Assembly: GCA_934130355.1 (NCBI GenBank)
Contig: CAKOXV010000002.1
Span: 4,204 to 68,203, forward strand
Reading direction: 5' to 3'
From: an uncultured Clostridia bacterium
GTDB lineage: Bacteria; Bacillota; Clostridia; TANB77; CAG-508
DNA: 64,000 bases
How positions within the stretch are numbered: position 1 is the first letter of the stretch; each line of letters opens with the position of its first letter. The notes beneath the pieces are model-generated. The model made no database searches. It worked only from the letters and a program-made list of their open reading frames with translations, and was not told where the DNA came from. Shown here in pieces: positions 23,430-31,815 of this stretch. Made by a program: the position numbers and the translations under genes.

Positions 23430-24848
23430 ATGAAAAAGTTTAGACTAACAAGAAAGGTACAAGTAATTTTAGCAATTATTCTGGCGATAGTTGCAGGAGT
23501 AATAATAGTTGGAATTTTCTCAAATAATAAAGCTATGGCGATAACTTCCTGCCCTAATTGTGGTGGTACACGTACATTTAGATACCAATCTTCAGGAAAT
23601 GGTTCAACTCATATACGAACGGTAGTATGTAATTCTTGTGGAAGTTCTACTGAAGCTGAAACATTATTATGTACAGGAGGAAGCTGGACACAAAGCGCTA
23701 ATGAAAGTAATGGACACGCAAGATATTGTGTTTATTGTGGATATGCTACAGCAGCAGGAACATGCTATGATGATAATAATGATGGAAAATGTGATGCTTG
23801 TGGTCGTTCTGGAATGCATACACACTCATACTCATCTACATCATATAGCCAAAACAGCAATAGCATACATAATATAATAAAAAGCTGCTCTTGTGGGGCT
23901 ACTCAAAATGCAGGAACAGAAGAACATAGTTTCGAATCATATTCAAATAATGGAAATGGACAACATAGTAGAACATGTTCAAAATGTGGATATACACAAA
24001 CAGAATCTCACACAGAAGTAATAGATGAGGCAAAAGAAGCAACATGTACAGAAGCAGGAAAGACAGAAGGAAAACATTGCTCAGTATGTAATACAGTAAC
24101 AGTAGCACAACAAGAAATACCAGCAAAAGGACATACAGAAGTAATAGATAAGGCAAAAGAAGTAACATGTACAGAAGCAGGAAAGACAGAAGGAAAACAT
24201 TGCTCAGTATGTAATACAGTAATAGTAGCACAACAAGAAATACCAGCAAAAGGACATACAGAAGTAATAGATGAGGCAAAAGAAGCAACATGTACAGAAA
24301 CAGGAGAGACAGAAGGAAAACATTGCTCAGTATGTAATACAGTAACAGTAGCACAACAAGAAATACCAGCAAAAGGACATAATTATGTGGACGGAGAATG
24401 TACAGAATGTGGAAAACAACAATATGACGACATAGAAATAGAATCAGAAAAATATGAAATAGATGATATTTATATATCAAAAATACAACCAAAAACAACA
24501 GTAAAAGACGTAAAAGATGGAATACAAACAAATGCAACAGAAATAAAAATATACGATACAGAAGACAACCTTTTAAAAGATACAGATATAGTAGGAACAA
24601 AAGCAAAAATAGAATTAAAAATAGGAAACAAAACCAAAATATATAAAGCAATAGTAATAGGTGACGTAGATGGAGATGGAATGGCGGGAATATTAGATAT
24701 TATAAGTATCAATAAATATAGATTAAATAAAAAGACATTAGAAGAAATATACTTAAAAGCAGCAGATGTAACAGAAGATAACAAAATAAATCTTATCGAT
24801 ATAATCAAAGTAAACAAATATAGATTGAATAAAATAACAAAGTTGTAA
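23430..24848 (+). CDS. Secreted/anchored cysteine-rich repeat protein with a C-terminal dockerin-like module
   Basis: N-terminal TM/signal anchor. Many CxxC pairs. Three 41-aa HTEVIDEAKEATCTEAGKTEGKHCSVCNTV... repeats. C-terminal GDVDGDG...DIISINKYRL / DVTEDNKINLIDIIKVNKYRL duplicated Ca-binding dockerin-type segments. Confidence 0.6.
   Translation: MKKFRLTRKVQVILAIILAIVAGVIIVGIFSNNKAMAITSCPNCGGTRTFRYQSSGNGSTHIRTVVCNSCGSSTEAETLLCTGGSWTQSANESNGHARYCVYCGYATAAGTCYDDNNDGKCDACGRSGMHTHSYSSTSYSQNSNSIHNIIKSCSCGATQNAGTEEHSFESYSNNGNGQHSRTCSKCGYTQTESHTEVIDEAKEATCTEAGKTEGKHCSVCNTVTVAQQEIPAKGHTEVIDKAKEVTCTEAGKTEGKHCSVCNTVIVAQQEIPAKGHTEVIDEAKEATCTETGETEGKHCSVCNTVTVAQQEIPAKGHNYVDGECTECGKQQYDDIEIESEKYEIDDIYISKIQPKTTVKDVKDGIQTNATEIKIYDTEDNLLKDTDIVGTKAKIELKIGNKTKIYKAIVIGDVDGDGMAGILDIISINKYRLNKKTLEEIYLKAADVTEDNKINLIDIIKVNKYRLNKITKL
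24009..24377 (+). repeat. Three tandem 123-bp in-frame coding repeats
   Basis: The units start at 24009, 24132 and 24255 (CAY ACA GAA GTA ATA GAT ...) and are nearly identical. Confidence 0.9.
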
Positions 24849-25270: not shown

Positions 25271-25900
25271 TTAATTATTAGTACAGTTATTTTTTTTCAT
25301 CATATCCATACAGGTTCCATCATTCATATAGAATTTCTTTTCTGCAAGTTTATCTTGAACACCTCTTAATGCTTCTCCAAATCTTTGGAAGTGAGCAACT
25401 TCTCTTTCACGTAAAAAGCGAAGAGGATCAATAACATCTGGATTATCTCGACATAAATCTATTAATTTTTCATAAGTAGCACGTGCTTTTTGCTCCGCAG
25501 CTAAATCTTCTTGTAAATTAGCTATTGCATCACCTTTACATGCTATATATGATGCAGTAAATGGAACGCCAGCAGCAGATTGTGGGTATACATCTACACC
25601 ATGGTCTGTATAGTAAGGACCAAGTCCAGCAACTTCTATTTCTTCAATAGAAGCATTTTTAGTTAATTGATAAACAATAGAACCAACCATTTCAAGATGG
25701 GCTAATTCTTCTGTACCTATATCATTAAGTATAGCTTTTGCGTTTTGGTCAGGCATAGCAAATCTTTGAGACAAATATCTTAAAGAAGCGGCTAATTCGC
25801 CATCAGGACCTCCATATTGGCTGATAATTACTTTTGCAAGACGAGGGTCTGTGCATTTAATGTTAACAGGGTATTGTAGTATTTTATTATAAGTCCACAT
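25271..25900 (-). CDS. cotJC: Manganese catalase family spore coat protein CotJC
   Basis: MWTYNK.LQYPV......P.LA..I..QYGGPDGELAASLRYLSQRF...IGTEELAHLEM is the CotJC/Mn-catalase signature. Confidence 0.9.
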   Translation of the reverse strand: MWTYNKILQYPVNIKCTDPRLAKVIISQYGGPDGELAASLRYLSQRFAMPDQNAKAILNDIGTEELAHLEMVGSIVYQLTKNASIEEIEVAGLGPYYTDHGVDVYPQSAAGVPFTASYIACKGDAIANLQEDLAAEQKARATYEKLIDLCRDNPDVIDPLRFLREREVAHFQRFGEALRGVQDKLAEKKFYMNDGTCMDMMKKNNCTNN

Positions 25901-25921
25901 CTAAAACATTCCTCCTTCCCA
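25901..25921 (-). other. cotJB: cotJB 3' segment (codons W-E-G-G-M-F-stop), separated from the rest of cotJB by the intervening element
   Basis: The reverse complement reads TGG GAA GGA GGA ATG TTT TAG and is immediately followed by the cotJC ATG. It joins in frame to the 5' segment through the shared AAGGCCA core. Confidence 0.8.
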
Positions 25922-26033
25922 AGGCCACCCTTAGTTTAAAAGAGAATAAAAAAAGCCAGTTTTATGAAGTGAACTTTTTGTGGTTCACCTCATTAGACTT
26001 GCTTTTGAATTGAATTGATTAGATTTAGACAAA

Positions 26034-26756
26034 TTATAAAGAATTATATAATTTGTTTAAAACGGTGCATATTACTAATTTTGGTCCTGGTCTAGTAGAA
26101 GTATTAAAATATTTTTGAAGTTTATTTTCACTACATTCATAAAACATAGAGTTTGTTGCAGACATAATATTACATTTAATATTATTAATGGTTTTATTGT
26201 GCCTTCGTGCAACAACAGGATAAATATTTTTATTCAAATTTTCATTCATTTTATAGTTTCCATACATTAAAGCAATACATTCTGATAAATATTTGGTTCC
26301 TATATAAGACAAATTATAACCAATATGTTCTAATTCTCTATTTATTGTGTTTGTTAATAATAGATTATTAAAATAAATGTGAATTCCTTTGTTTTTTGCT
26401 ATTATATCTATCTTGAAAAATAACAAATCTAAATCTGTTGAGGGAGAGACGTATTCACATACATAAAAGTCTGAATCAATAGAATTAGTGTTTTTTTCAG
26501 ATATTACAATAACAGATTTTTTACACTTTTCAGAATATATACTAGAAATAGTATGTAAGCTAGAAATGATAGAATCAATACTATCATCTACATTTATTAA
26601 TGTAATGTCAATTAAACCAGTATTCAATAACTTAATTCCTTCATTTAGAGTTTTCGTAATAGAATGAACTCTAATTTGATAACCATTTCCGGAAATATAA
26701 TTAAGTAAATATATTGAATGATTAATGTCTTTATCTATAATGAGTAGGTTTAACAT
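26034..26756 (-). CDS. Spo0A-like regulator: degenerate receiver domain plus a Spo0A C-terminal DNA-binding domain
   Basis: The C-terminus INRELEHIGYNLSYIGTKYLSECIALMY....L.KNIYPVVARRHNKT.NNIKCNI...RPGPKLVICTVLNKL aligns by pattern with B. subtilis Spo0A [28 protein letters not shown]...VLYPDIAKKFNTT.SRVERAI...KPTNSEFIAMVADKL. The N-terminus is LLIIDKD..., but LINV stands where the phospho-Asp motif LLDI is expected. Confidence 0.65.
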   Translation of the reverse strand: MLNLLIIDKDINHSIYLLNYISGNGYQIRVHSITKTLNEGIKLLNTGLIDITLINVDDSIDSIISSLHTISSIYSEKCKKSVIVISEKNTNSIDSDFYVCEYVSPSTDLDLLFFKIDIIAKNKGIHIYFNNLLLTNTINRELEHIGYNLSYIGTKYLSECIALMYGNYKMNENLNKNIYPVVARRHNKTINNIKCNIMSATNSMFYECSENKLQKYFNTSTRPGPKLVICTVLNKLYNSL

Positions 26757-26987
26757 TTCAATGCCTCCGTTTTAATCATCTATATATTAGACGGATAAGA
26801 GGGCATCAGAAGGTGCGTTTTTTGAAAAAAAGTTGAAAAAAGTTGAAAAAAATAATTTTTTTTACCTTTTTTTACCTTTTTGTCACTTTTTGCAATGAGC
26901 GTGCTATAATATTAATACTAATAAGCATTAATAAGTCAATAAGTTTTGTGTTTGATAAATTCAAACCTAAACTTTATTGATAAAATG

Positions 26988-27002
26988 GAAAAATGATTTG
27001 CT
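26988..27002. repeat. Left arm of a 15-bp perfect inverted repeat (GAAAAATGATTTGCT) flanking the GC-rich ORF
   Basis: Its reverse complement AGCAAATCATTTTTC occurs at 27573-27587. Confidence 0.85.
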
Positions 27003-27029
27003 GCGACTAACAATTTAAGGAGGACAACT

Positions 27030-27563
27030 ATGAAAAAAATCAATTTGCGTTTTGCTTCGATGGCACTTGCTATCATGATGCTGGTACTCAGCATTCCGAC
27101 TTTTGCCTTTGCAGCAGAAGAAAACACAGCTCAGCAACTGCATGAGAACGTTGTTTCTGTTGAAGAACTGGACAACGGCAAGGTTCGGACAACTTATGAG
27201 TTCGAAGTAACTCCTGAGAGTGTGGATGACAATGGTATTGCTACTTATGCAATCGATTCGTCTTTCACCATGACCGGTACCTACTATCGTGGCGCTGACA
27301 GAACGTATGATGGTGATTATCTGGACTATACTATGATTGTTACTTCCGCCGATACCAGTGAAACTAGAAAAGTTTCTATTGAGTTGTGGGATTACAATCA
27401 TAGTAGAGCTTTGCAAACTGATATCGTAACTGTAAATGGAGAAAATATTTCCACGTACGATGTTCCTATTGTTGCCAATAGAACATACTTCTTTAAATAT
27501 TATTTGGTTGGAGGTTCTACTACAAGTATCAGAATCAGAATGATTATTGATAGTTGGAGTTAA
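27030..27563 (+). CDS. Secreted hypothetical protein (signal peptide ...PTFAFA-AEEN), compositionally foreign
   Basis: AAGGAGG RBS and a classic signal peptide. Uses CTG/GGC/ACC/CGT codons that are rare elsewhere in the window. About 40% GC by eye. Confidence 0.6.
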   Translation: MKKINLRFASMALAIMMLVLSIPTFAFAAEENTAQQLHENVVSVEELDNGKVRTTYEFEVTPESVDDNGIATYAIDSSFTMTGTYYRGADRTYDGDYLDYTMIVTSADTSETRKVSIELWDYNHSRALQTDIVTVNGENISTYDVPIVANRTYFFKYYLVGGSTTSIRIRMIIDSWS

Positions 27564-27572
27564 CAAGAATTA

Positions 27573-27587
27573 AGCAAATCATTTTTC
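27573..27587. repeat. Right arm of the 15-bp perfect inverted repeat
   Basis: AGCAAATCATTTTTC is the reverse complement of 26988-27002. Confidence 0.85.
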
Positions 27588-27597
27588 TATAAAAACG

Positions 27598-27624
27598 AAA
27601 GGCATCCTGAATAAGGATGTCTTT
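27598..27624. terminator. Bidirectional terminator AAAGGCATCC-TGAATAA-GGATGTCTTTT
   Basis: Hairpin with a T-run, between convergent ORFs. Confidence 0.7.
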
Positions 27625-27629
27625 TGTTT

Positions 27630-28718
27630 TTATTTAGATAACTCTAAATCTATTTCTTTAGATGAGTCTAAGTTAATATGTAAATATAATTTATTAATAT
27701 TATCATAAGTAGAAATAGGATATGTCAATGTTATTGTACTAGAATAAGGTTCTGTGTTGTTAATGTTTTGAGAGCGCGTTTTTGTTGGTCTATATTTATT
27801 GCCATTTTCATCTTTTAAAATAATTGAATTTCTTCTATAAAGTGTTGCTTCATCAAATAATGTGTTTAATTTTAGCTCAATTGAAAGAGATGTATTAGTA
27901 AGAGAAGTTGTAATATTATCAACATAAGGACTTTCTGTAGAAGAATATTCATATGAATCTCTTGTAACGAATTTATCATCCATGCGTATTGAAAAGTTCC
28001 AATTACCATCAATATACTCAATATTATCATTTTTCATTAATTCTATATCTACAATTTCAATGTGTAACACTTGAGATGCAGGAAATTGGTTAGAAAAACT
28101 TAATACTGATTCTCTAATAGTAGTATTATCTAAAAATTCGATTTTATTGCTTGATTTTACAGTAGTACCTAAAGCATTAAAAATATTTGCATCAGAATGA
28201 TTTTTGGAAACCGCACATAATACATTATCTTCTTCATCCTTAATTGTCAAATTACCAAATGTCATACTATCAAAAGCAACATCATCTCCATAATACTTAT
28301 AAACAAATGAAATATCTAAATTCTTATCATCCATAAGTAAATAATCAACTTTAACGCCAATATCGCCACATTTTATAAAATCCATATCCACATTTTGTAC
28401 ATATCCATTGTCAACAGCTTTATCAATACCAGAATTACTATTTGTAAAAATCTTAGATATAAAATTAACTATATCTTTAGCATAAACAGTTGTTGCAGTA
28501 ATAACACCAAGAGAAACTACGAAAACAGCAACTCTTTTTAGTAGAATAGCATTATTAGTAGTATTTTCTTCTTTAGATTTAGTTGAATTTAGGGCATTTT
28601 CAATAGTACTTTGAGTAGAAAGAGGAAGCTGTGTAGCTTTATTTTTATAATAATCAAATAGCATTTTATCAAAAGCATCTGGTTGATTAAACATTTCGAA
28701 TTTATCTTTTTCTTCCAT
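27630..28718 (-). CDS. Anti-sigma factor-like membrane protein (DUF4179-type)
   Basis: Overlaps the upstream sigma gene by 17 nt. Short cytoplasmic N-terminus, a single TM helix (VAVFVVSLGVITATTVYA), and a large extracytoplasmic beta-rich domain. Confidence 0.6.
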   Translation of the reverse strand: MEEKDKFEMFNQPDAFDKMLFDYYKNKATQLPLSTQSTIENALNSTKSKEENTTNNAILLKRVAVFVVSLGVITATTVYAKDIVNFISKIFTNSNSGIDKAVDNGYVQNVDMDFIKCGDIGVKVDYLLMDDKNLDISFVYKYYGDDVAFDSMTFGNLTIKDEEDNVLCAVSKNHSDANIFNALGTTVKSSNKIEFLDNTTIRESVLSFSNQFPASQVLHIEIVDIELMKNDNIEYIDGNWNFSIRMDDKFVTRDSYEYSSTESPYVDNITTSLTNTSLSIELKLNTLFDEATLYRRNSIILKDENGNKYRPTKTRSQNINNTEPYSSTITLTYPISTYDNINKLYLHINLDSSKEIDLELSK

Positions 28719-29250
28719 TTTTTAGCCCTCCTTCATTATAAATTTCTTGCAATTTCTGTTTTGCTCTTAAAATCCTACTCTTTACAGTATTAACACTAAT
28801 ATTCAAAATCCTTGAAATCTCTGTTGGTGTATAATTGTTTTTATAATAAAGAGTAAGAATAAGTCTTTCATCATAATTCAAGCGATTTATTAACAAATCG
28901 AAATCAATCTCATTTTCTTTAGTCTGAATCTCTCTTTCTGCGTAAGAAACTACATCTATTGAAGTTGATAATGCACTAAAAAGACCTAATTCTTGTTTCT
29001 TTTTACGGTGAATGTTATTACATTCATTTATTAAGATTTTCATAATCCAAGTTTTAAAATAACTAGGAGTTTTTAATGTAGGCAATTTTGCATAAGAAAT
29101 CATAATCGTTTCTTGCAAAGCATCATTAACATCATCAATATCATGTAACTGAGAGACAGCTATTTTATACATATCAGCTTGGATGCTTTTAACTAATTTT
29201 ATATAAGCATCTTGTTCGCCTTTCAAAGAACGTTCTATTAATTCTTCCAA
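28702..29250 (-). CDS. ECF-type RNA polymerase sigma-70 family factor
   Basis: Region 2 (DDVNDALQETIMISY...FKTWIMKILINECNN) and region 4 (ERLILTLYY..NYTPTEISRILNISVNTVKSRILRAKQKL). Confidence 0.85.
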   Translation of the reverse strand: MEELIERSLKGEQDAYIKLVKSIQADMYKIAVSQLHDIDDVNDALQETIMISYAKLPTLKTPSYFKTWIMKILINECNNIHRKKKQELGLFSALSTSIDVVSYAEREIQTKENEIDFDLLINRLNYDERLILTLYYKNNYTPTEISRILNISVNTVKSRILRAKQKLQEIYNEGGLKNGRKR

Positions 29251-29506
29251 ATTAAATCTCCTTTCATTAAAATAATAATGAATTTATACAATCTATCCTA
29301 TAGAGTATAAATTTTTTTGTATAAGTATACAAGCCGCAAAAAGCGATATTAAATCTTCATATAATACATCACCACCCAAAAATCGACACAGAAAATGTCA
29401 TAATTTGTAATATATTGGTATTATAATTGAAAAAATATTAAAACGTGGAGTACATTTTGACATCTTTTTCCATATACTTAATAAAATTTACAGAGGTGAT
29501 TATGGC

Positions 29507-29620
29507 TTGAAGAAGGTAGAAGAAAATTACACAAAAAATGGAAAAGATTTATCTGAATTAATACAAGAGTGGTTTAATGAAAATAGAGAACAATTATATA
29601 AATTGTTAGAGGATAAATAA
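29507..29620 (+). CDS. 37-aa ORF translationally coupled to the recombinase (candidate accessory/directionality factor)
   Basis: Own translation from TTG: (M)KKVEENYTKNGKDLSELIQEWFNENREQLYKLLEDK. RBS GAGGTG 8 nt upstream. The stop is 1 nt before the recombinase ATG. Confidence 0.3.
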   Translation: MKKVEENYTKNGKDLSELIQEWFNENREQLYKLLEDK

Positions 29621-29621
29621 T

Positions 29622-31199
29622 ATGATTAAAATTAAAAGTAATTCAAAAGAAAAAATATGGAAAGTTGGGATATATGCAAGAATTTCGAGAGAAGACGAGA
29701 AAAGTGAAAAATATAAAGAGCAATCAGAAAGTATAGAAAATCAAATTAATTTTTTAGTTCCTATAATAGAAAAAAATGGTTGGGAGCTCGTAGAAATTTA
29801 TAAAGATGATGGATATACAGGAACAAATTTTGAAAGACCAGATTTTTTAAGAATGTTAAGAGACATTGAACTTGAAAAAATAAATTTAGTAATAACCAAA
29901 GATTTATCAAGGCTTGGAAGAGATTATATAGAAGTGGGAAAATTTATAGAAAGATATTTTCCTGTTAAAAATGTTAGATATATTGCTGTGAATGATAATG
30001 TCGATACTTATGATATAAATAATATTAATAATGATATAACACCATTTAAAGCAGTATTTAATGATATGTATTCAAAAGATATTTCAAAAAAAGTACGAAC
30101 ATCAATAATAACAAAAGCCAAAAGAGGAGAATGTATAAAAGCTTTTTTGCCTTATGGTTATAAAAAATCAATAAATGATAAAAATGTTATATTAGTAGAT
30201 GAAGAGGTAGCTGATAATATAAAATTAATATTTGATTTATATAAAAATGGAAAAAGTAAAAAAGAAATTGCCACAATATTAAATGAAAAAAATATAATAA
30301 CACCATTAAAATATAAAGAAAAAACAACTAATTATTATAATCCTAATTCAAAACACACATATAGGTGGAATACAACATCTATAAATAAAATTTTGAGAGA
30401 TAGAACTTATATAGGAGATTTGGTTCAGTTAAAATATAATAAAGTAAACTACAAAATCAAAAAAGTTGAGAAAAAGACACCTGATGAATATGTAATAATA
30501 AAAAATAATCATGTTCCAATAATAGATAATCAAACTTTCAATTTGGTACAAGATATGTTAAACAAGCAAACTAATGAATGGAATTATGGAAATGTTACTA
30601 AACATTTATTATCAGGTTTGGCTTTTTGCAAATGCGGAGGAAGAATAACTTATATTAAAAATAGTAAACAAAAATTTAGATGTATGTGTTCAAATTATAA
30701 AAAATATGGCAAAAGTTTTTGCACAAATGTACATATTAATGAGGATGAGTTGATAGAAGAAGTAATAAATTCATTAAAAGAGAATATTAAGCAGAATTTC
30801 AATATTAAAAATCTAAAGATAGTGTGGAAAAAAGATGAAACAGATTTTTTGAAAAATATACAAAAATTAAATAAAATGAAAGAAGAAACTAATAGGATAA
30901 TTGGCAACTTATATGAGGCTCAAAATAGTGGTCAAATTTCACAAGATACGTTTTTTATGCTAGTTCAAAAATATGAGGAACAAAGAAATTGCTATGAGAG
31001 AAAAATACAAAATATTAAACAATATGAACTAAAAAATGAGAAAATTCAAAATATGAGCCAAATGAAAATCATACGAAAGGTAAATGAAGTTTTAGAGTTT
31101 AAAGAGATAAATCAAGAAACTAAAAATTTGATTTTTAAATTAATTGATAAAATTATAATTGATGATAAAAACATAGAAATAAAATATAAATTCAAGTGA
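29622..31199 (+). CDS. Large serine recombinase (resolvase/invertase N-domain, recombinase domain, zinc ribbon, coiled coil)
   Basis: VGIYARISRED...S..NQ catalytic region, DDGYTGTNFERPDF, ITKDLSRLGRDY, and CKCGGR...CMCSNYKKYGKSFC zinc ribbon. Its stop codon lies 13 nt from the AAGGCCA core. Confidence 0.9.
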   Translation: MIKIKSNSKEKIWKVGIYARISREDEKSEKYKEQSESIENQINFLVPIIEKNGWELVEIYKDDGYTGTNFERPDFLRMLRDIELEKINLVITKDLSRLGRDYIEVGKFIERYFPVKNVRYIAVNDNVDTYDINNINNDITPFKAVFNDMYSKDISKKVRTSIITKAKRGECIKAFLPYGYKKSINDKNVILVDEEVADNIKLIFDLYKNGKSKKEIATILNEKNIITPLKYKEKTTNYYNPNSKHTYRWNTTSINKILRDRTYIGDLVQLKYNKVNYKIKKVEKKTPDEYVIIKNNHVPIIDNQTFNLVQDMLNKQTNEWNYGNVTKHLLSGLAFCKCGGRITYIKNSKQKFRCMCSNYKKYGKSFCTNVHINEDELIEEVINSLKENIKQNFNIKNLKIVWKKDETDFLKNIQKLNKMKEETNRIIGNLYEAQNSGQISQDTFFMLVQKYEEQRNCYERKIQNIKQYELKNEKIQNMSQMKIIRKVNEVLEFKEINQETKNLIFKLIDKIIIDDKNIEIKYKFK

Positions 31200-31213
31200 C
31201 CCAAAATGAACGA

Positions 31214-31453
31214 AGGCCATGGTTCTTCAAGCCATCTCCATTTGTTACATGGAAATTGAATTGTCAAAGGTCCATAAACTTTTTGATATTTATCTGTTAA
31301 TTCTCTATATTCTTTGGCATATTTTCTGTGTAAACAAAGTGCTTTTTCATCATCAACGTGAGTATCTAAATATAATCCTAATTCAGTCATAGCAAAATTC
31401 AAACACTTAATTCTTTCTAACATATCTTCTCTACAATTTTCGTTATCTAGCAT
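31214..31453 (-). CDS. cotJB: Spore coat protein CotJB, 5' segment (codons 1-80). The track ORF 31112-31453 reads through into the element.
   Basis: MLERIKCLNFAMTELGLYLDTH.DD..AL...YA..Y..L...Y...YGPLT...W.W..EPWP is the CotJB pattern. After codon 80 the unexcised frame gives a hydrophobic nonsense tail (SFILGHLNLYFISMFL...). Confidence 0.85.
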
Positions 31454-31815
31454 TTGTTACACCCCTTTCCAATTGTATTTGTGGCTTCTAAGAATTCATT
31501 TGTCCTCATTGATTGGCAAGGCATATAAGGGCTAACTAATTCAGGAAATAAAGTTCCCATTTTTAAGCCAACACAAGGTTTAAAAGTTTGGTCCATAAAT
31601 TGCCATGGAACATAACTTTGACCTAACATTGGATTCTCTGGAAATACACTTACTTCGTATTCTTCATCAAATCCACATTCACACATATCTTTTTCATAAT
31701 CTTCACAATTGCATGAACACATATTATTACATTGATCTTCTATTATAGTATTATCAGTAGTGTTAGAAACACTATTATTCATACAACAGCATTTTTTGAA
31801 ATTTCTAGTAAACAT
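31447..31815 (-). CDS. cotJA: Spore coat associated protein CotJA
   Basis: The C-terminal PMLGQSYVPWQ.....F.P..GL..GTLFPEL..PY motif is typical of CotJA. Overlaps the cotJB start by 7 nt. Confidence 0.8.
   Translation of the reverse strand: MFTRNFKKCCCMNNSVSNTTDNTIIEDQCNNMCSCNCEDYEKDMCECGFDEEYEVSVFPENPMLGQSYVPWQFMDQTFKPCVGLKMGTLFPELVSPYMPCQSMRTNEFLEATNTIGKGCNKC

What the first reader, a model, noticed from the sequence alone, without database searches (positions are those of the whole stretch)
26034..29250. The element's cargo is regulatory: a Spo0A-C-domain paralog with a degenerate receiver plus an ECF sigma/anti-sigma pair
The element carries no phage structural genes. Its cargo is:
- A 240-aa protein whose C-terminal half matches the Spo0A DNA-binding domain pattern. 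Its receiver-like N-terminus appears to have Asn (LINVDD) where the phospho-acceptor Asp (LLDI) is expected.
- An overlapping ECF sigma / DUF4179-type anti-sigma pair.

A mobile element that both resides in a mother-cell spore-coat gene and carries a possibly phosphorylation-independent Spo0A-like DNA binder and its own sigma factor could modulate host sporulation or envelope-stress programmes. Phage- and element-borne sporulation regulators (sigma factors, spo0A-like genes) have been reported in other Firmicutes. This combination inside a cotJB-intervening element looks unusual.
Basis: partly seen in the sequence, partly recalled or inferred. Interest (0 to 1): 0.65.

Follow-up and report, generated by a model that had tools for sequence, protein, structure and literature searches.

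The report
ECF-sigma/Spo0A-like cassette on cotJB element
A 5.3-kb mobile element sitting in the spore-coat gene cotJB of a gut Clostridium carries a four-gene sensing circuit that is common on ordinary chromosomes of related bacteria; its "Spo0A-like" regulator shares only Spo0A's fold, so there is no evidence that it controls sporulation.

Summary
The 240-aa protein (26034-26756, -) has a Spo0A_C domain above Pfam's cut-off and a receiver-like N-terminus with Asn55 where the acceptor Asp should be. It sits near an overlapping ECF sigma / DUF4179-type anti-sigma pair. All lie in a 5.3-kb serine-recombinase element inserted in the 3' end of cotJB. The exact empty site occurs in 90 metagenome contigs.

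- The four genes form a conserved cassette.
- The protein belongs to a large family of about 240-aa regulators (266 clusters at E<=1e-30) in uncultured gut Clostridia, about half with Asp and about 38% with Asn at the acceptor site.
- Its recognition helix (NNIKCNIxxAT) is unlike Spo0A's (SRVERAIRHAI). The element has no perfect 0A box.

Conserved motifs suggest this wiring. The ECF sigma transcribes the Spo0A-like gene from TGCACC-N18-CGTCTAAT. The regulator then binds tandem 10-bp AAAGGTAAAA boxes and activates the secreted-protein gene. This is inferred, not shown.

It is a new variant of known kinds, of moderate interest.

The parts
25921..25927 (-). Core TGGCCTT at the cotJC-proximal junction (attR-like). 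After precise excision cotJB would end ...EEPWPWEGGMF*, directly followed by the cotJC ATG.
   Evidence: Read directly from the sequence. The predicted 23-nt junction is found exactly in 90 metagenome contigs, all with uninterrupted cotJB-cotJC.
31213..31219 (-). Core TGGCCTT at the cotJB-proximal junction (attL-like). The element spans about 25928-31212 (about 5.29 kb).
   Evidence: A homologous junction and P' arm are present in L019.
26034..26756 (-). Spo0A-like regulator, 240 aa: an aspartate-less receiver (K9, N55, no beta5 Lys, no alpha4) joined to a Spo0A_C-fold DNA-binding domain with a family-specific recognition helix NNIKCNIMSAT.
   Evidence: dN/dS is 0.19 against the L001 copy.
26770..26816 (-). 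ECF-type promoter CGCACC-N18-CGTCTAAT, about 60 nt upstream of the Spo0A-like start codon.
   Evidence: The motif TG(C/A)A(C/A)C-N17-19-nnTCT(A/T)A lies at -47 to -79 (one outlier at -184) in 24 of 44 Spo0A-like genes in the loci, plus the window's own gene with a CGCACC -35 variant. Background is 0.023 per 230 nt. The same motif lies upstream of 10 of 41 ECF genes.
26823..26885 (.). Predicted operator: two sets of tandem boxes with a 10-bp period (AAAGTTGAAA x2 and, on the other strand, AAAGGTAAAA x2 plus two degenerate units), arranged as a 31-nt inverted repeat between the divergent promoters.
   Evidence: Of 60 tandem-box sites, 21 fall in the 300 nt upstream of Spo0A-like genes, against 0.84 expected (P about 2e-22).
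26900..27029 (+). Promoter of the 177-aa gene (extended -10 TGCTATAAT, no good -35, boxes overlapping the -35 region). It has a 5' UTR of about 120 nt with a covarying hairpin followed by a conserved GGAAAATGAT motif.
   Evidence: The same box-plus-TGnTATAAT layout precedes SH3_3 protein genes in L004 and L007.
27030..27563 (+). Secreted 177-aa protein (signal peptide, then a beta-sandwich). It is the fourth conserved cassette gene and matches no Pfam family.
   Evidence: The AlphaFold2 model has pLDDT 74, above 85 for residues 80-177. Foldseek gives only weak matches to carbohydrate-binding modules. dN/dS is 0.09.
27630..28718 (-). Single-pass anti-sigma factor, 362 aa: N-terminal cytoplasmic part, one transmembrane segment, a DUF4179-like juxtamembrane region, and an extracellular domain of about 220 aa with unknown fold.
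   Evidence: It has no relative in the PDB. The extracellular part is the most divergent segment against L001 (74-86% nt identity).
28702..29250 (-). ECF sigma factor, 182 aa, with a TTG start. It overlaps the anti-sigma gene by 17 nt.
29507..29620 (+). 37-aa acidic ORF (pI 4.9) coupled to the recombinase start. It is a candidate recombination directionality factor. A sigma-K-like AC-N17-CATATACT lies upstream at about 29449-29478.
   Evidence: The protein is unchanged after the TTG start codon in L001 (one synonymous change) and 52% identical just upstream of the L019 recombinase. The promoter call is a consensus match only.
29622..31199 (+). Large serine recombinase, 525 aa. Its 3' end overlaps the att arm next to cotJB.
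   Evidence: Pfam finds Resolvase, Recombinase and Zn_ribbon_recom. NCBIfam gives CcrB/XisF-like hits. PHROGs gives integrase phrog_95 at 1.4e-90.
31213..31815 (-). cotJA (31447-31815) and the interrupted cotJB (31213-31453).
   Evidence: Pfam CotJA and CotJB.
25271..25900 (-). cotJC (Mn-catalase-like), separated from cotJA/cotJB by the element.
   Evidence: Pfam Mn_catalase at 3.3e-53.

Best explanation
A 5.3-kb element with no phage genes has integrated at a conserved TGGCCTT core in the last codons of cotJB. It consists of a large serine recombinase plus a 37-aa candidate directionality factor. It carries, as a passenger, a four-gene signalling cassette that is native to the chromosomes of this clade of uncultured gut Clostridia.

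Proposed working of the cassette:
1. The membrane anti-sigma factor (RsiV-like juxtamembrane region, extracellular domain of about 220 aa) holds the ECF sigma inactive until an extracellular or envelope cue triggers its removal.
2. The freed ECF sigma transcribes the Spo0A-like gene from an ECF-type promoter (CGCACC-N18-CGTCTAAT).
3. The Spo0A-like protein lacks the acceptor Asp, so it is controlled by how much of it is made rather than by phosphorylation. It binds tandem AAAG(G/A)TAAAA boxes with a 10-bp period, head to tail, as Spo0A binds tandem 0A boxes.
4. Binding activates the divergent sigma-A promoter (extended -10, no -35) of the secreted 177-aa beta-sandwich protein, and probably reinforces its own promoter.

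The protein shares Spo0A's fold but not its DNA specificity, so the circuit is an envelope or extracellular response module and not a sporulation switch.

Shown: gene content, folds, the Asn at the acceptor site, the insertion and its empty site, conservation of the cassette, and motif enrichment.
Inferred: every regulatory arrow, the signal, and excision during sporulation.
For: Element and empty site.

Domains and folds.

The cassette is conserved without a recombinase:
- Searches show the contexts.
- Across 55 non-redundant loci, an ECF homologue lies within 5 kb in 31, an anti-sigma homologue in 28, the 177-aa homologue in 12, and a related recombinase in only 5.

All five genes are under purifying selection between two copies of the element (dN/dS 0.09-0.32).

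ECF-type promoter:
- It precedes 24 of 44 Spo0A-like genes in the loci, plus the window's own gene, where about 1 would be expected by chance.
- The same motif precedes 10 of 41 ECF genes, as expected for autoregulated ECF promoters.

Tandem boxes:
- Enriched about 25-fold upstream of family genes (P about 2e-22).
- Present across members only about 30% identical that keep the recognition helix NNIKCNIxxATNxM.
- The same box-plus-extended -10 layout precedes other secreted-protein (SH3_3) genes next to cassettes.

Supporting literature:
- DUF4179 marks RsiV-type anti-sigma factors that are cleaved on ligand binding (PMC6066255).
- Aspartate-less receivers are common, and Asn is a frequent substitute (PMC4395418, PMC12632262).
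Against:
- In the window and its closest relatives the ECF operon itself lacks the ECF-type motif. The link between this sigma and this promoter therefore rests on more distant paralogues.
- The -35 is TGCACC/CGCACC, not the canonical ECF 'AAC'.
- The boxes are A-tracts with helical phasing, so they could be UP elements or bent DNA rather than a protein site.
- Only 20 of 47 family genes have a tandem box within 300 nt upstream.
- The loci are not independent samples, because several are near-duplicates.
- The DUF4179 hit is below Pfam's cut-off.
- The function of the 177-aa protein is unknown; the fold matches are weak (TM 0.3-0.45).
Confidence: 0.55

Rival explanations
1. First reader's view. 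The element-borne Spo0A-like protein is a phosphorylation-independent Spo0A mimic. It acts on host sporulation either by binding 0A boxes or by titrating Spo0A partners (kinases, phosphatases, or the Spo0A receiver itself) through its pseudo-receiver. The element thereby tunes entry into sporulation.
For: - The Spo0A_C fold and a Spo0A-like receiver fold are present.
- The element sits in a sporulation operon.
- There are precedents: effector-only spo0A homologues on gut phages (PMC10294663), PF08769 enriched on gut Firmicutes mobile elements (10.1101/214213), and the yin element, which advances sporulation (PMC10747680).
Against: - The recognition helix shares 2 of 15 residues with Spo0A's.
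- The NCBIfam Spo0A equivalog scores 28 bits against a cut-off of 200.
- The cassette is chromosomal and recombinase-free in most relatives.
- The gene has its own conserved non-0A operator and an ECF-type promoter.
- The family is absent from IMG/VR by this search.
- Partner titration cannot be excluded with these tools.
Confidence: 0.1
2. The cargo controls the element itself. The ECF sigma and/or the Spo0A-like protein regulate the recombinase or the 37-aa ORF, and so set when the element excises from cotJB.
For: - The sigma operon and the recombinase operon are divergent, and their 370-nt intergenic region is 97% identical between two copies of the element. That is more conserved than the cargo.
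- A second cotJB element (L019) also carries a Spo0A-like gene.
Against: - There is neither a tandem box nor an ECF-type motif upstream of the recombinase or the 37-aa ORF.
- Only 5 of 55 loci carrying family members have a related recombinase nearby.
- The L019 cargo is otherwise different.
Confidence: 0.07
3. The tandem A-rich boxes are not the regulator's operator. They are UP elements or curved DNA typical of strong AT-rich promoters. The Spo0A-like protein binds elsewhere, or acts through protein contacts with the sigma or anti-sigma. The 177-aa gene is instead controlled through its conserved 5' UTR hairpin.
For: - The boxes are A-tracts in 10-bp phase.
- The 5' UTR hairpin covaries across cassettes and is followed by an invariant GGAAAATGAT.
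- There is precedent for a response regulator that stabilises an ECF sigma, PorX-SigP (PMC7826278).
Against: - The G(G/A)T core inside the A-tracts is conserved across family members only about 30% identical.
- The sites are specifically enriched next to family genes.
- There is only one perfect site in 64 kb of 28% G+C sequence.
Confidence: 0.2

Closest known systems
Spo0A (master sporulation response regulator; PDB 1LQ1, 1FC3, 1QMP)
   Same: - Same two-domain layout: a receiver-like N-terminus and a six-helix Spo0A_C domain (TM 0.86-0.88 to 1lq1).
- Predicted binding to direct repeats with a 10-bp period that overlap the -35 region of a sigma-A promoter. This resembles Spo0A at tandem 0A boxes (the last point rests on established knowledge, not a test here).
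   Different: - No acceptor Asp (N55), K9 in place of the second acidic residue, no beta5 Lys, no alpha4.
- Recognition helix NNIKCNIMSAT against SRVERAIRHAI.
- 28 bits against the Spo0A equivalog model (cut-off 200).
- Predicted operator AAAGGTAAAA, not TGTCGAA.
- Transcribed from an ECF-type promoter and linked to a sigma / anti-sigma pair, not to kinases or a phosphorelay.
Aspartate-less / pseudo-receiver response regulators (e.g. RitR, ChxR)
   Same: - Receiver fold with Asn at the acceptor position and Lys at the second acidic position, the same pair described for RitR (Lys10/Asn53; PMC4395418).
- Presumed to act without phosphorylation.
   Different: - The effector domain is Spo0A_C, not OmpR-type.
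- In this family, intact-Asp and Asn forms coexist (106 D and 83 N of 217).
- Control appears to come from an ECF sigma at the level of transcription.
SigV-RsiV and other ECF30-type sigma / DUF4179 anti-sigma pairs of Firmicutes
   Same: An overlapping ECF sigma and single-pass anti-sigma, with a DUF4179-like juxtamembrane region and a large extracellular domain. A ligand-gated proteolytic release is therefore plausible (PMC6066255, PMC7826278).
   Different: - The extracellular domain has no detectable relative with a solved structure.
- The DUF4179 score is below the cut-off.
- The conserved neighbours are a Spo0A_C regulator and a small secreted beta-sandwich protein. I found no description of that context in the ECF reclassification text searched.
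- No autoregulatory promoter was seen for the window's copy.
Sporulation-gene intervening elements (skin in sigK, SPbeta in spsM, vfbin in spoVFB, gin in gerE, yin in yabG)
   Same: - A large serine recombinase.
- Insertion inside a mother-cell sporulation gene.
- Precise excision would restore the reading frame.
- Small and non-viral like gin (PMC5595907).
- A small acidic ORF next to the recombinase, like the RDFs Skr, CD1234 and SprB (PMC10747680).
   Different: - The target is cotJB, which is not among the targets listed in the papers read.
- The insertion removes only the last six codons.
- The cargo is a complete sigma / anti-sigma / regulator / secreted-protein circuit.
- Excision during sporulation has not been shown.
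Phage-borne truncated spo0A homologues of the human gut (Schwartz et al. 2023, PMC10294663)
   Same: A Spo0A_C-domain protein on a mobile element in gut Firmicutes that would not need the phosphorelay.
   Different: - Those are effector-only proteins on phages.
- This protein keeps a degenerate receiver under purifying selection.
- It is not on a phage, and its family was not found in IMG/VR.

Membership tests
Spo0A (orthologue; NCBIfam TIGR02875) | C-terminal Spo0A_C DNA-binding domain | tested here: met
   PF08769 at 48.1 bits, cut-off 25. Foldseek TM 0.86-0.88 to 1lq1.
Spo0A (orthologue; NCBIfam TIGR02875) | Phosphorylatable receiver (acidic pair, acceptor Asp, Thr/Ser, Lys) | tested here: not met
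   K9, N55 and no beta5 Lys. No PF00072 hit.
Spo0A (orthologue; NCBIfam TIGR02875) | Score at or above the equivalog cut-off | tested here: not met
   28.2 bits against a cut-off of 200.
Spo0A (orthologue; NCBIfam TIGR02875) | Conserved recognition-helix residues that read the 0A box TGTCGAA | tested here: not met
   The helix aligned to SRVERAIRHAIEVAW reads NNIKCNIMSATNSMF, 2 of 15 identical. [quoted passage not shown]
Aspartate-less (pseudo-) receiver response regulators | Receiver (CheY-like) fold | tested here: met
   Model pLDDT 87. TM 0.72-0.78 to solved receivers. Alpha4 is missing.
Aspartate-less (pseudo-) receiver response regulators | Non-Asp residue at the phospho-acceptor position | tested here: met
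   Asn55 aligns with the acceptor Asp in profile alignments to 4e7o, 4zmr and others.
Aspartate-less (pseudo-) receiver response regulators | Activity independent of phosphorylation | not testable with these tools
   Needs biochemistry. Deamidation of Asn to Asp is a known caveat (PMC4395418).
ECF (group 4) sigma factors | Only sigma regions 2 and 4 | tested here: met
   Sigma70_r2 and Sigma70_r4_2 in 182 aa. TIGR02937 at 89.9 bits, cut-off 42.9. Best PDB relatives are SigW and RpoE.
ECF (group 4) sigma factors | Co-transcribed cognate anti-sigma factor | tested here: met
   The genes overlap by 17 nt on the same strand. The pairing is conserved in 28 of 55 loci.
ECF (group 4) sigma factors | Autoregulated ECF-type promoter upstream of its own operon | tested here: inconclusive
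   No motif upstream of the window's sigma or its close homologues. It is present upstream of 10 of 41 more distant paralogues.
RsiV-like DUF4179 anti-sigma factors | DUF4179 domain spanning the transmembrane segment and juxtamembrane helices | tested here: inconclusive
   23.8 bits against a cut-off of 30.1, residues 64-139. Homologues carry precomputed weak hits.
RsiV-like DUF4179 anti-sigma factors | Ligand-triggered site-1 cleavage and intramembrane proteolysis | not testable with these tools
   Inferred only by analogy (PMC6066255).
Sporulation-gene intervening elements | Site-specific (large serine) recombinase encoded on the element | tested here: met
   Resolvase, Recombinase and Zn_ribbon_recom. 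phrog_95 integrase.
Sporulation-gene intervening elements | Insertion inside a sporulation gene, with the frame restored by precise excision, and existence of the empty site | tested here: met
   A shared TGGCCTT core. The predicted junction is present in 90 metagenome contigs with intact cotJB-cotJC.
Sporulation-gene intervening elements | Excision in the mother cell during sporulation | not testable with these tools
There is only a sigma-K-like consensus match upstream of the 37-aa ORF.
Sporulation-gene intervening elements | Recombination directionality factor | tested here: inconclusive
   A 37-aa acidic ORF is conserved upstream of the recombinase in L001 (identical after the TTG start) and L019 (52%). 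There is no functional test.

The most novel reading that the evidence does not exclude
The cassette could be a self-contained autoinduction or kin-signalling loop. In this reading the secreted 177-aa beta-sandwich protein is the ligand, or ligand carrier, sensed by the extracellular domain of the cognate anti-sigma factor. The circuit would run sigma, then Spo0A-like regulator, then secreted protein, then back to the anti-sigma. Moving the cassette on a cotJB element would transfer a private signalling channel between strains. It would also put cotJC downstream of an ECF-controlled gene while the element is integrated. The extracellular part of the anti-sigma and the 177-aa gene are the most divergent segments between two otherwise close copies of the element. 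The four genes always travel together.
Probability: 0.1. Interest if true: 0.7.

Novelty: new variant of a known kind. Interest (0 to 1): 0.45.

Why it matters
- It corrects a tempting annotation. Proteins labelled 'Spo0A C-terminal domain' on gut mobile elements are counted in the literature as sporulation genes. This large family shares the fold but not the DNA-reading residues, and it is wired to ECF sigma factors.
- It gives a testable three-tier circuit (anti-sigma, ECF sigma, phosphorylation-independent regulator, secreted protein) with predicted promoter and operator sequences. The organisms are uncultured, so such predictions are the only handle available.
- It adds cotJB to the sporulation genes that host excisable elements. 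It also shows that such elements can be as small as 5.3 kb and carry a chromosomal signalling cassette.

Tried and rejected
- megablast of the locus against phage genomes: no match.
- IMG/VR scans with the recombinase and with the Spo0A-like family alignment: no relatives.
- Rfam on the whole window and, permissively, on the element: nothing credible. The 5' UTR hairpin is not a known RNA family.
- PADLOC: no defence-system match apart from a weak HTH-level hit for the sigma.
- PDB sequence search with the anti-sigma: no relative, so its sensor domain stays unassigned.
- Perfect 0A boxes: none in the element, and one in the window, which is no more than chance.
- The generic sigma-70 promoter scan is uninformative in this AT-rich DNA (50 found, 49.8 expected).
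- I considered that L019 carries the element in inverted orientation. I rejected this because the P' arm next to cotJB is homologous in both, so the gene order inside the element differs instead.
- I considered positive selection on the sensor domain. I rejected this because dN/dS is 0.29; the uneven dS (0.035-0.52) points to mosaic recombination.

Full report
**Setting.** The window is 28% G+C chromosomal DNA of a spore-forming Clostridium-like bacterium. PNPase, AddA, Asd, DapA, an ABC transporter and other housekeeping genes surround the locus. On the minus strand lie cotJA (31447-31815), a cotJB that runs into foreign sequence after ...EEPWP (31213-31453), and 5.3 kb further on cotJC (25271-25900).

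**The element is real.**
- The two junctions share the core TGGCCTT (31219-31213 and 25927-25921 on the minus strand).
- Joining them restores ...EEPWPWEGGMF*, followed at once by the cotJC start codon.
- The predicted 23-nt empty-site junction occurs exactly in 90 metagenome contigs. All 90 align across the junction with uninterrupted cotJ(A)B-C, at 78-85% identity to the window's flanks.
- The element (about 25928-31212) encodes a 525-aa large serine recombinase (Resolvase, Recombinase, Zn_ribbon_recom; phrog_95 integrase).
- Just upstream of the recombinase is a 37-aa acidic ORF. It is unchanged in a second copy of the element (L001) and 52% identical in front of the recombinase of a divergent cotJB element (L019).
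- No phage structural gene is present, and there is no match in the phage collection or in IMG/VR.

- The 240-aa protein hits Spo0A_C at 48.1 bits (cut-off 25) over residues 138-234. It has no Response_reg hit.
- An AlphaFold2 model built on 30 homologues has mean pLDDT 87. It shows strand-helix repeats of a receiver that lacks alpha4, followed by six helices.
- Foldseek matches the C-terminal half to the Spo0A DNA-binding domain (1lq1, 1fc3; TM 0.86-0.88, rmsd 1.7-1.9 A). It matches the N-terminal half to receiver domains, including those of Spo0A (5wq0, 1qmp; TM 0.72-0.78).
- Profile alignment to solved receivers places Asn55 of ITLINVDD on the acceptor Asp. Lys9 replaces the second acidic residue and the beta5 Lys is missing.
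- The ECF sigma (28702-29250) and the anti-sigma (27630-28718) overlap by 17 nt. The sigma assignment is solid. The DUF4179 hit of the anti-sigma is below Pfam's cut-off, at 23.8 against 30.1 bits.

A fourth gene (27030-27563, +) lies between the anti-sigma and the Spo0A-like gene. It encodes a 177-aa protein with a signal peptide. The four genes form a conserved cassette.

**Distribution of the cassette.**
- A search with the Spo0A-like protein found 80 clusters of proteins, nearly all about 230-250 aa. A search with the 177-aa protein found 74 clusters.
- In contigs that encode them, the order sigma, anti-sigma, convergent protein of about 175 aa, Spo0A-like recurs at 45-70% identity.
- L001 is the same cotJB element in a near-identical strain.
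- L004-L012 carry the cassette with a small HTH_3 gene in place of the recombinase.
- L061-L063 come from a very prevalent gut species; the 177-aa homologue is indexed in 483 blocks of the collection. There the cassette lies among FtsW/RodA, PadR, HD-domain, CsoR and CopA genes, with no recombinase.
- Over 55 non-redundant loci with a family member, a homologous ECF sigma lies within 5 kb in 31, the anti-sigma in 28, the 177-aa gene in 12, and a related recombinase in only 5.
- All named genomes are uncultured gut Clostridia (human, rabbit, mouse, ruminant).
The genes are ordinary chromosomal neighbours in relatives, and the element has picked the cassette up.

**The family is not Spo0A.**
- An exhaustive profile search finds 266 clusters (50% identity) at E<=1e-30 and 833 at E<=1e-10, almost all 225-250 aa.
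- Among 217 members aligned, the acceptor position is Asp in 106 and Asn in 83. The second acidic position is Lys in 74. Intact and aspartate-less receivers therefore coexist in one family. Both are common kinds (PMC4395418, PMC12632262), and RitR has the same Lys/Asn pair.
- The recognition helix is strongly conserved within the family (N-N-I-K-C-N-I-x-x-A-T-N-x-M). It aligns to SRVERAIRHAIEVAW of Spo0A with 2 of 15 identities.
- In true Spo0A proteins all DNA-contacting residues are conserved from Bacillus to C. difficile, and they read TGTCGAA (PMC3485338).
- The NCBIfam Spo0A equivalog scores 28 bits against a cut-off of 200.
- The element has no perfect 0A box.
- The protein is not decaying. 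Between the window and L001, dN/dS is 0.17 for the receiver-like half and 0.23 for the DNA-binding half. All five element genes lie between 0.09 and 0.32.

**Predicted wiring: the promoter of the Spo0A-like gene.**
- Comparing cassettes shows a conserved intergenic layout.
- About 60 nt upstream of the Spo0A-like start codon lies TGCACC-N18-19-C(G/A)TCTAAT. In the window it is CGCACC-N18-CGTCTAAT, starting at 26816.
- In more distant members the -35 becomes TGCAAC or TGAAAC, the classical ECF -35.
- The motif lies at -47 to -79 (one outlier at -184) in 24 of 44 family genes in the loci. The window's own gene carries the CGCACC variant. The background rate is 0.023 per 230 nt.
- The same motif sits 62-81 nt upstream of 10 of 41 neighbouring ECF sigma genes, as expected for autoregulated ECF promoters.
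- I infer that the ECF sigma transcribes the Spo0A-like gene.

**Predicted wiring: the operator and its target.**
- Upstream of that promoter, facing the divergent 177-aa gene, are tandem 10-bp repeats AAAG(G/A)TAAAA. In the window they sit at 26861-26879, with a mirrored AAAGTTGAAA pair, forming a 31-nt inverted repeat.
- Tandem boxes are present in members only about 30% identical.
- Of 60 sites in 1.0 Mb, 21 lie in the 300 nt upstream of family genes, which make up 1.4% of the sequence. That is 0.84 expected, P about 2e-22, with the caveat that some loci are near-duplicates.
- The window has only one perfect site in 64 kb.
- The 177-aa gene has an extended -10 (TGCTATAAT) and no usable -35, and the boxes overlap that position.
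- The same layout precedes genes for secreted SH3_3 proteins next to cassettes in L004 and L007.
- By analogy with Spo0A, which binds head to tail on tandem 0A boxes (PDB 1LQ1; established knowledge), I infer that the regulator binds these boxes and activates sigma-A promoters of secreted-protein genes.
- A regulator that cannot be phosphorylated but is made only when an ECF sigma is released is a coherent design.

**The output and the sensor.**
- The 177-aa protein models as a beta-sandwich, with pLDDT above 85 for residues 80-177. It has only weak similarity to carbohydrate-binding modules. Its role is unknown.
- The anti-sigma's extracellular domain of about 220 aa has no relative with a solved structure.
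- DUF4179 marks RsiV-type anti-sigma factors whose cleavage is gated by ligand binding (PMC6066255). This suggests, but does not show, ligand-triggered release here.
- Between the window and L001 the divergence is uneven. The recombinase, the sigma and the cytoplasmic part of the anti-sigma are 95-97% identical in DNA. The sensor domain, the 177-aa gene, the intergenic region and the Spo0A-like gene are 74-90% identical. dS ranges from 0.035 to 0.52 and no gene shows dN/dS above 1. The history is therefore one of mosaic recombination.

**Comparison with what is known.**
- Spo0A_C genes are reported as enriched on gut Firmicutes mobile elements (10.1101/214213).
- Effector-only spo0A homologues are reported on gut phages (PMC10294663). 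This protein differs from those: it keeps a degenerate receiver, it is not viral, and its family was not found in IMG/VR.
- The passages of the ECF reclassification that matched my search terms mention DUF4179 anti-sigma factors. The term Spo0A does not occur in that paper.
- The intervening-element papers I read list sigK, spsM, spoVFB, gerE and yabG as targets, and not cotJB.
- I therefore rate this a new variant of known kinds: an ECF signalling module, an aspartate-less response regulator and a sporulation-gene intervening element.

**Limits.**
- No transcript, binding or excision data were available.
- Every regulatory arrow is inferred from conserved sequence.
- The A-rich boxes could be promoter-architecture elements rather than an operator.
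- A protein-level effect of the pseudo-receiver on the host Spo0A pathway cannot be excluded.

Noticed in passing
window 29507-29620 (+) and about 29449-29478: A 37-aa acidic ORF (pI 4.9) ends in TAATATG, overlapping the recombinase start. It is unchanged in L001 and 52% identical in front of the L019 recombinase. A sigma-K-like AC-N17-CATATACT lies upstream; in L001 the -10 reads CAGATACT. It is a candidate recombination directionality factor.
   Followed up: partly
window 26930-27029 (+); homologous regions in L001, L004, L007, L009-L012, L020, L023, L030, L034: The 5' UTR of about 120 nt of the secreted-protein gene holds a hairpin whose sequence changes completely between cassettes while the pairing is kept. 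It is followed by a nearly invariant GGAAAATGAT about 40 nt before the start codon. It matches no Rfam family and its function is unknown.
   Followed up: partly
L019 4830-10570 (uncultured Clostridium sp. UMGS1531): A second, divergent cotJB element at the same crossover point, with a recombinase 54% identical. The recombinase sits at the cotJC end. The cargo is different: a Spo0A-like regulator with an intact receiver (D...D...S...K), a secreted trypsin-like protease and three small paralogous proteins. Another Spo0A-like paralogue next to a zf-HC2 anti-sigma lies just outside the element.
   Followed up: partly
L004 10360-10520; L007 9874-10030: The same tandem TTTTTTACC boxes followed by an extended -10 precede genes for secreted SH3_3-domain proteins beside the cassette. 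This suggests a small regulon of cell-surface proteins.
   Followed up: partly
window 25913-31292 compared with L001: The flanking cotJB and cotJC fragments are 100% identical in protein between the two strains. Inside the element, DNA identity ranges from 74% (anti-sigma sensor domain) to 98% (recombinase 5' region), and dS ranges from 0.035 to 0.52. The element is a mosaic.
   Followed up: yes
window 23430-24848 (+): A 472-aa secreted protein with many Cys-x-x-Cys repeats, three near-identical 37-aa repeats (HTEVIDEAKEATCTEAGKTEGKHCSVCNTVTVAQQEIPAKG) and a C-terminal type I dockerin. This hints at a cellulosome-like surface system in this organism.
   Followed up: no
L004-L011, upstream of the ECF sigma: In recombinase-free cassettes a 111-aa HTH_3 (Xre-like) gene precedes the sigma. 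It is separated from the sigma by a conserved palindrome AGTATATG-N-CATATACT. The window's element lacks this gene but keeps a related palindrome, TTGTATACTTATACAA, at about 29314-29329.
   Followed up: no
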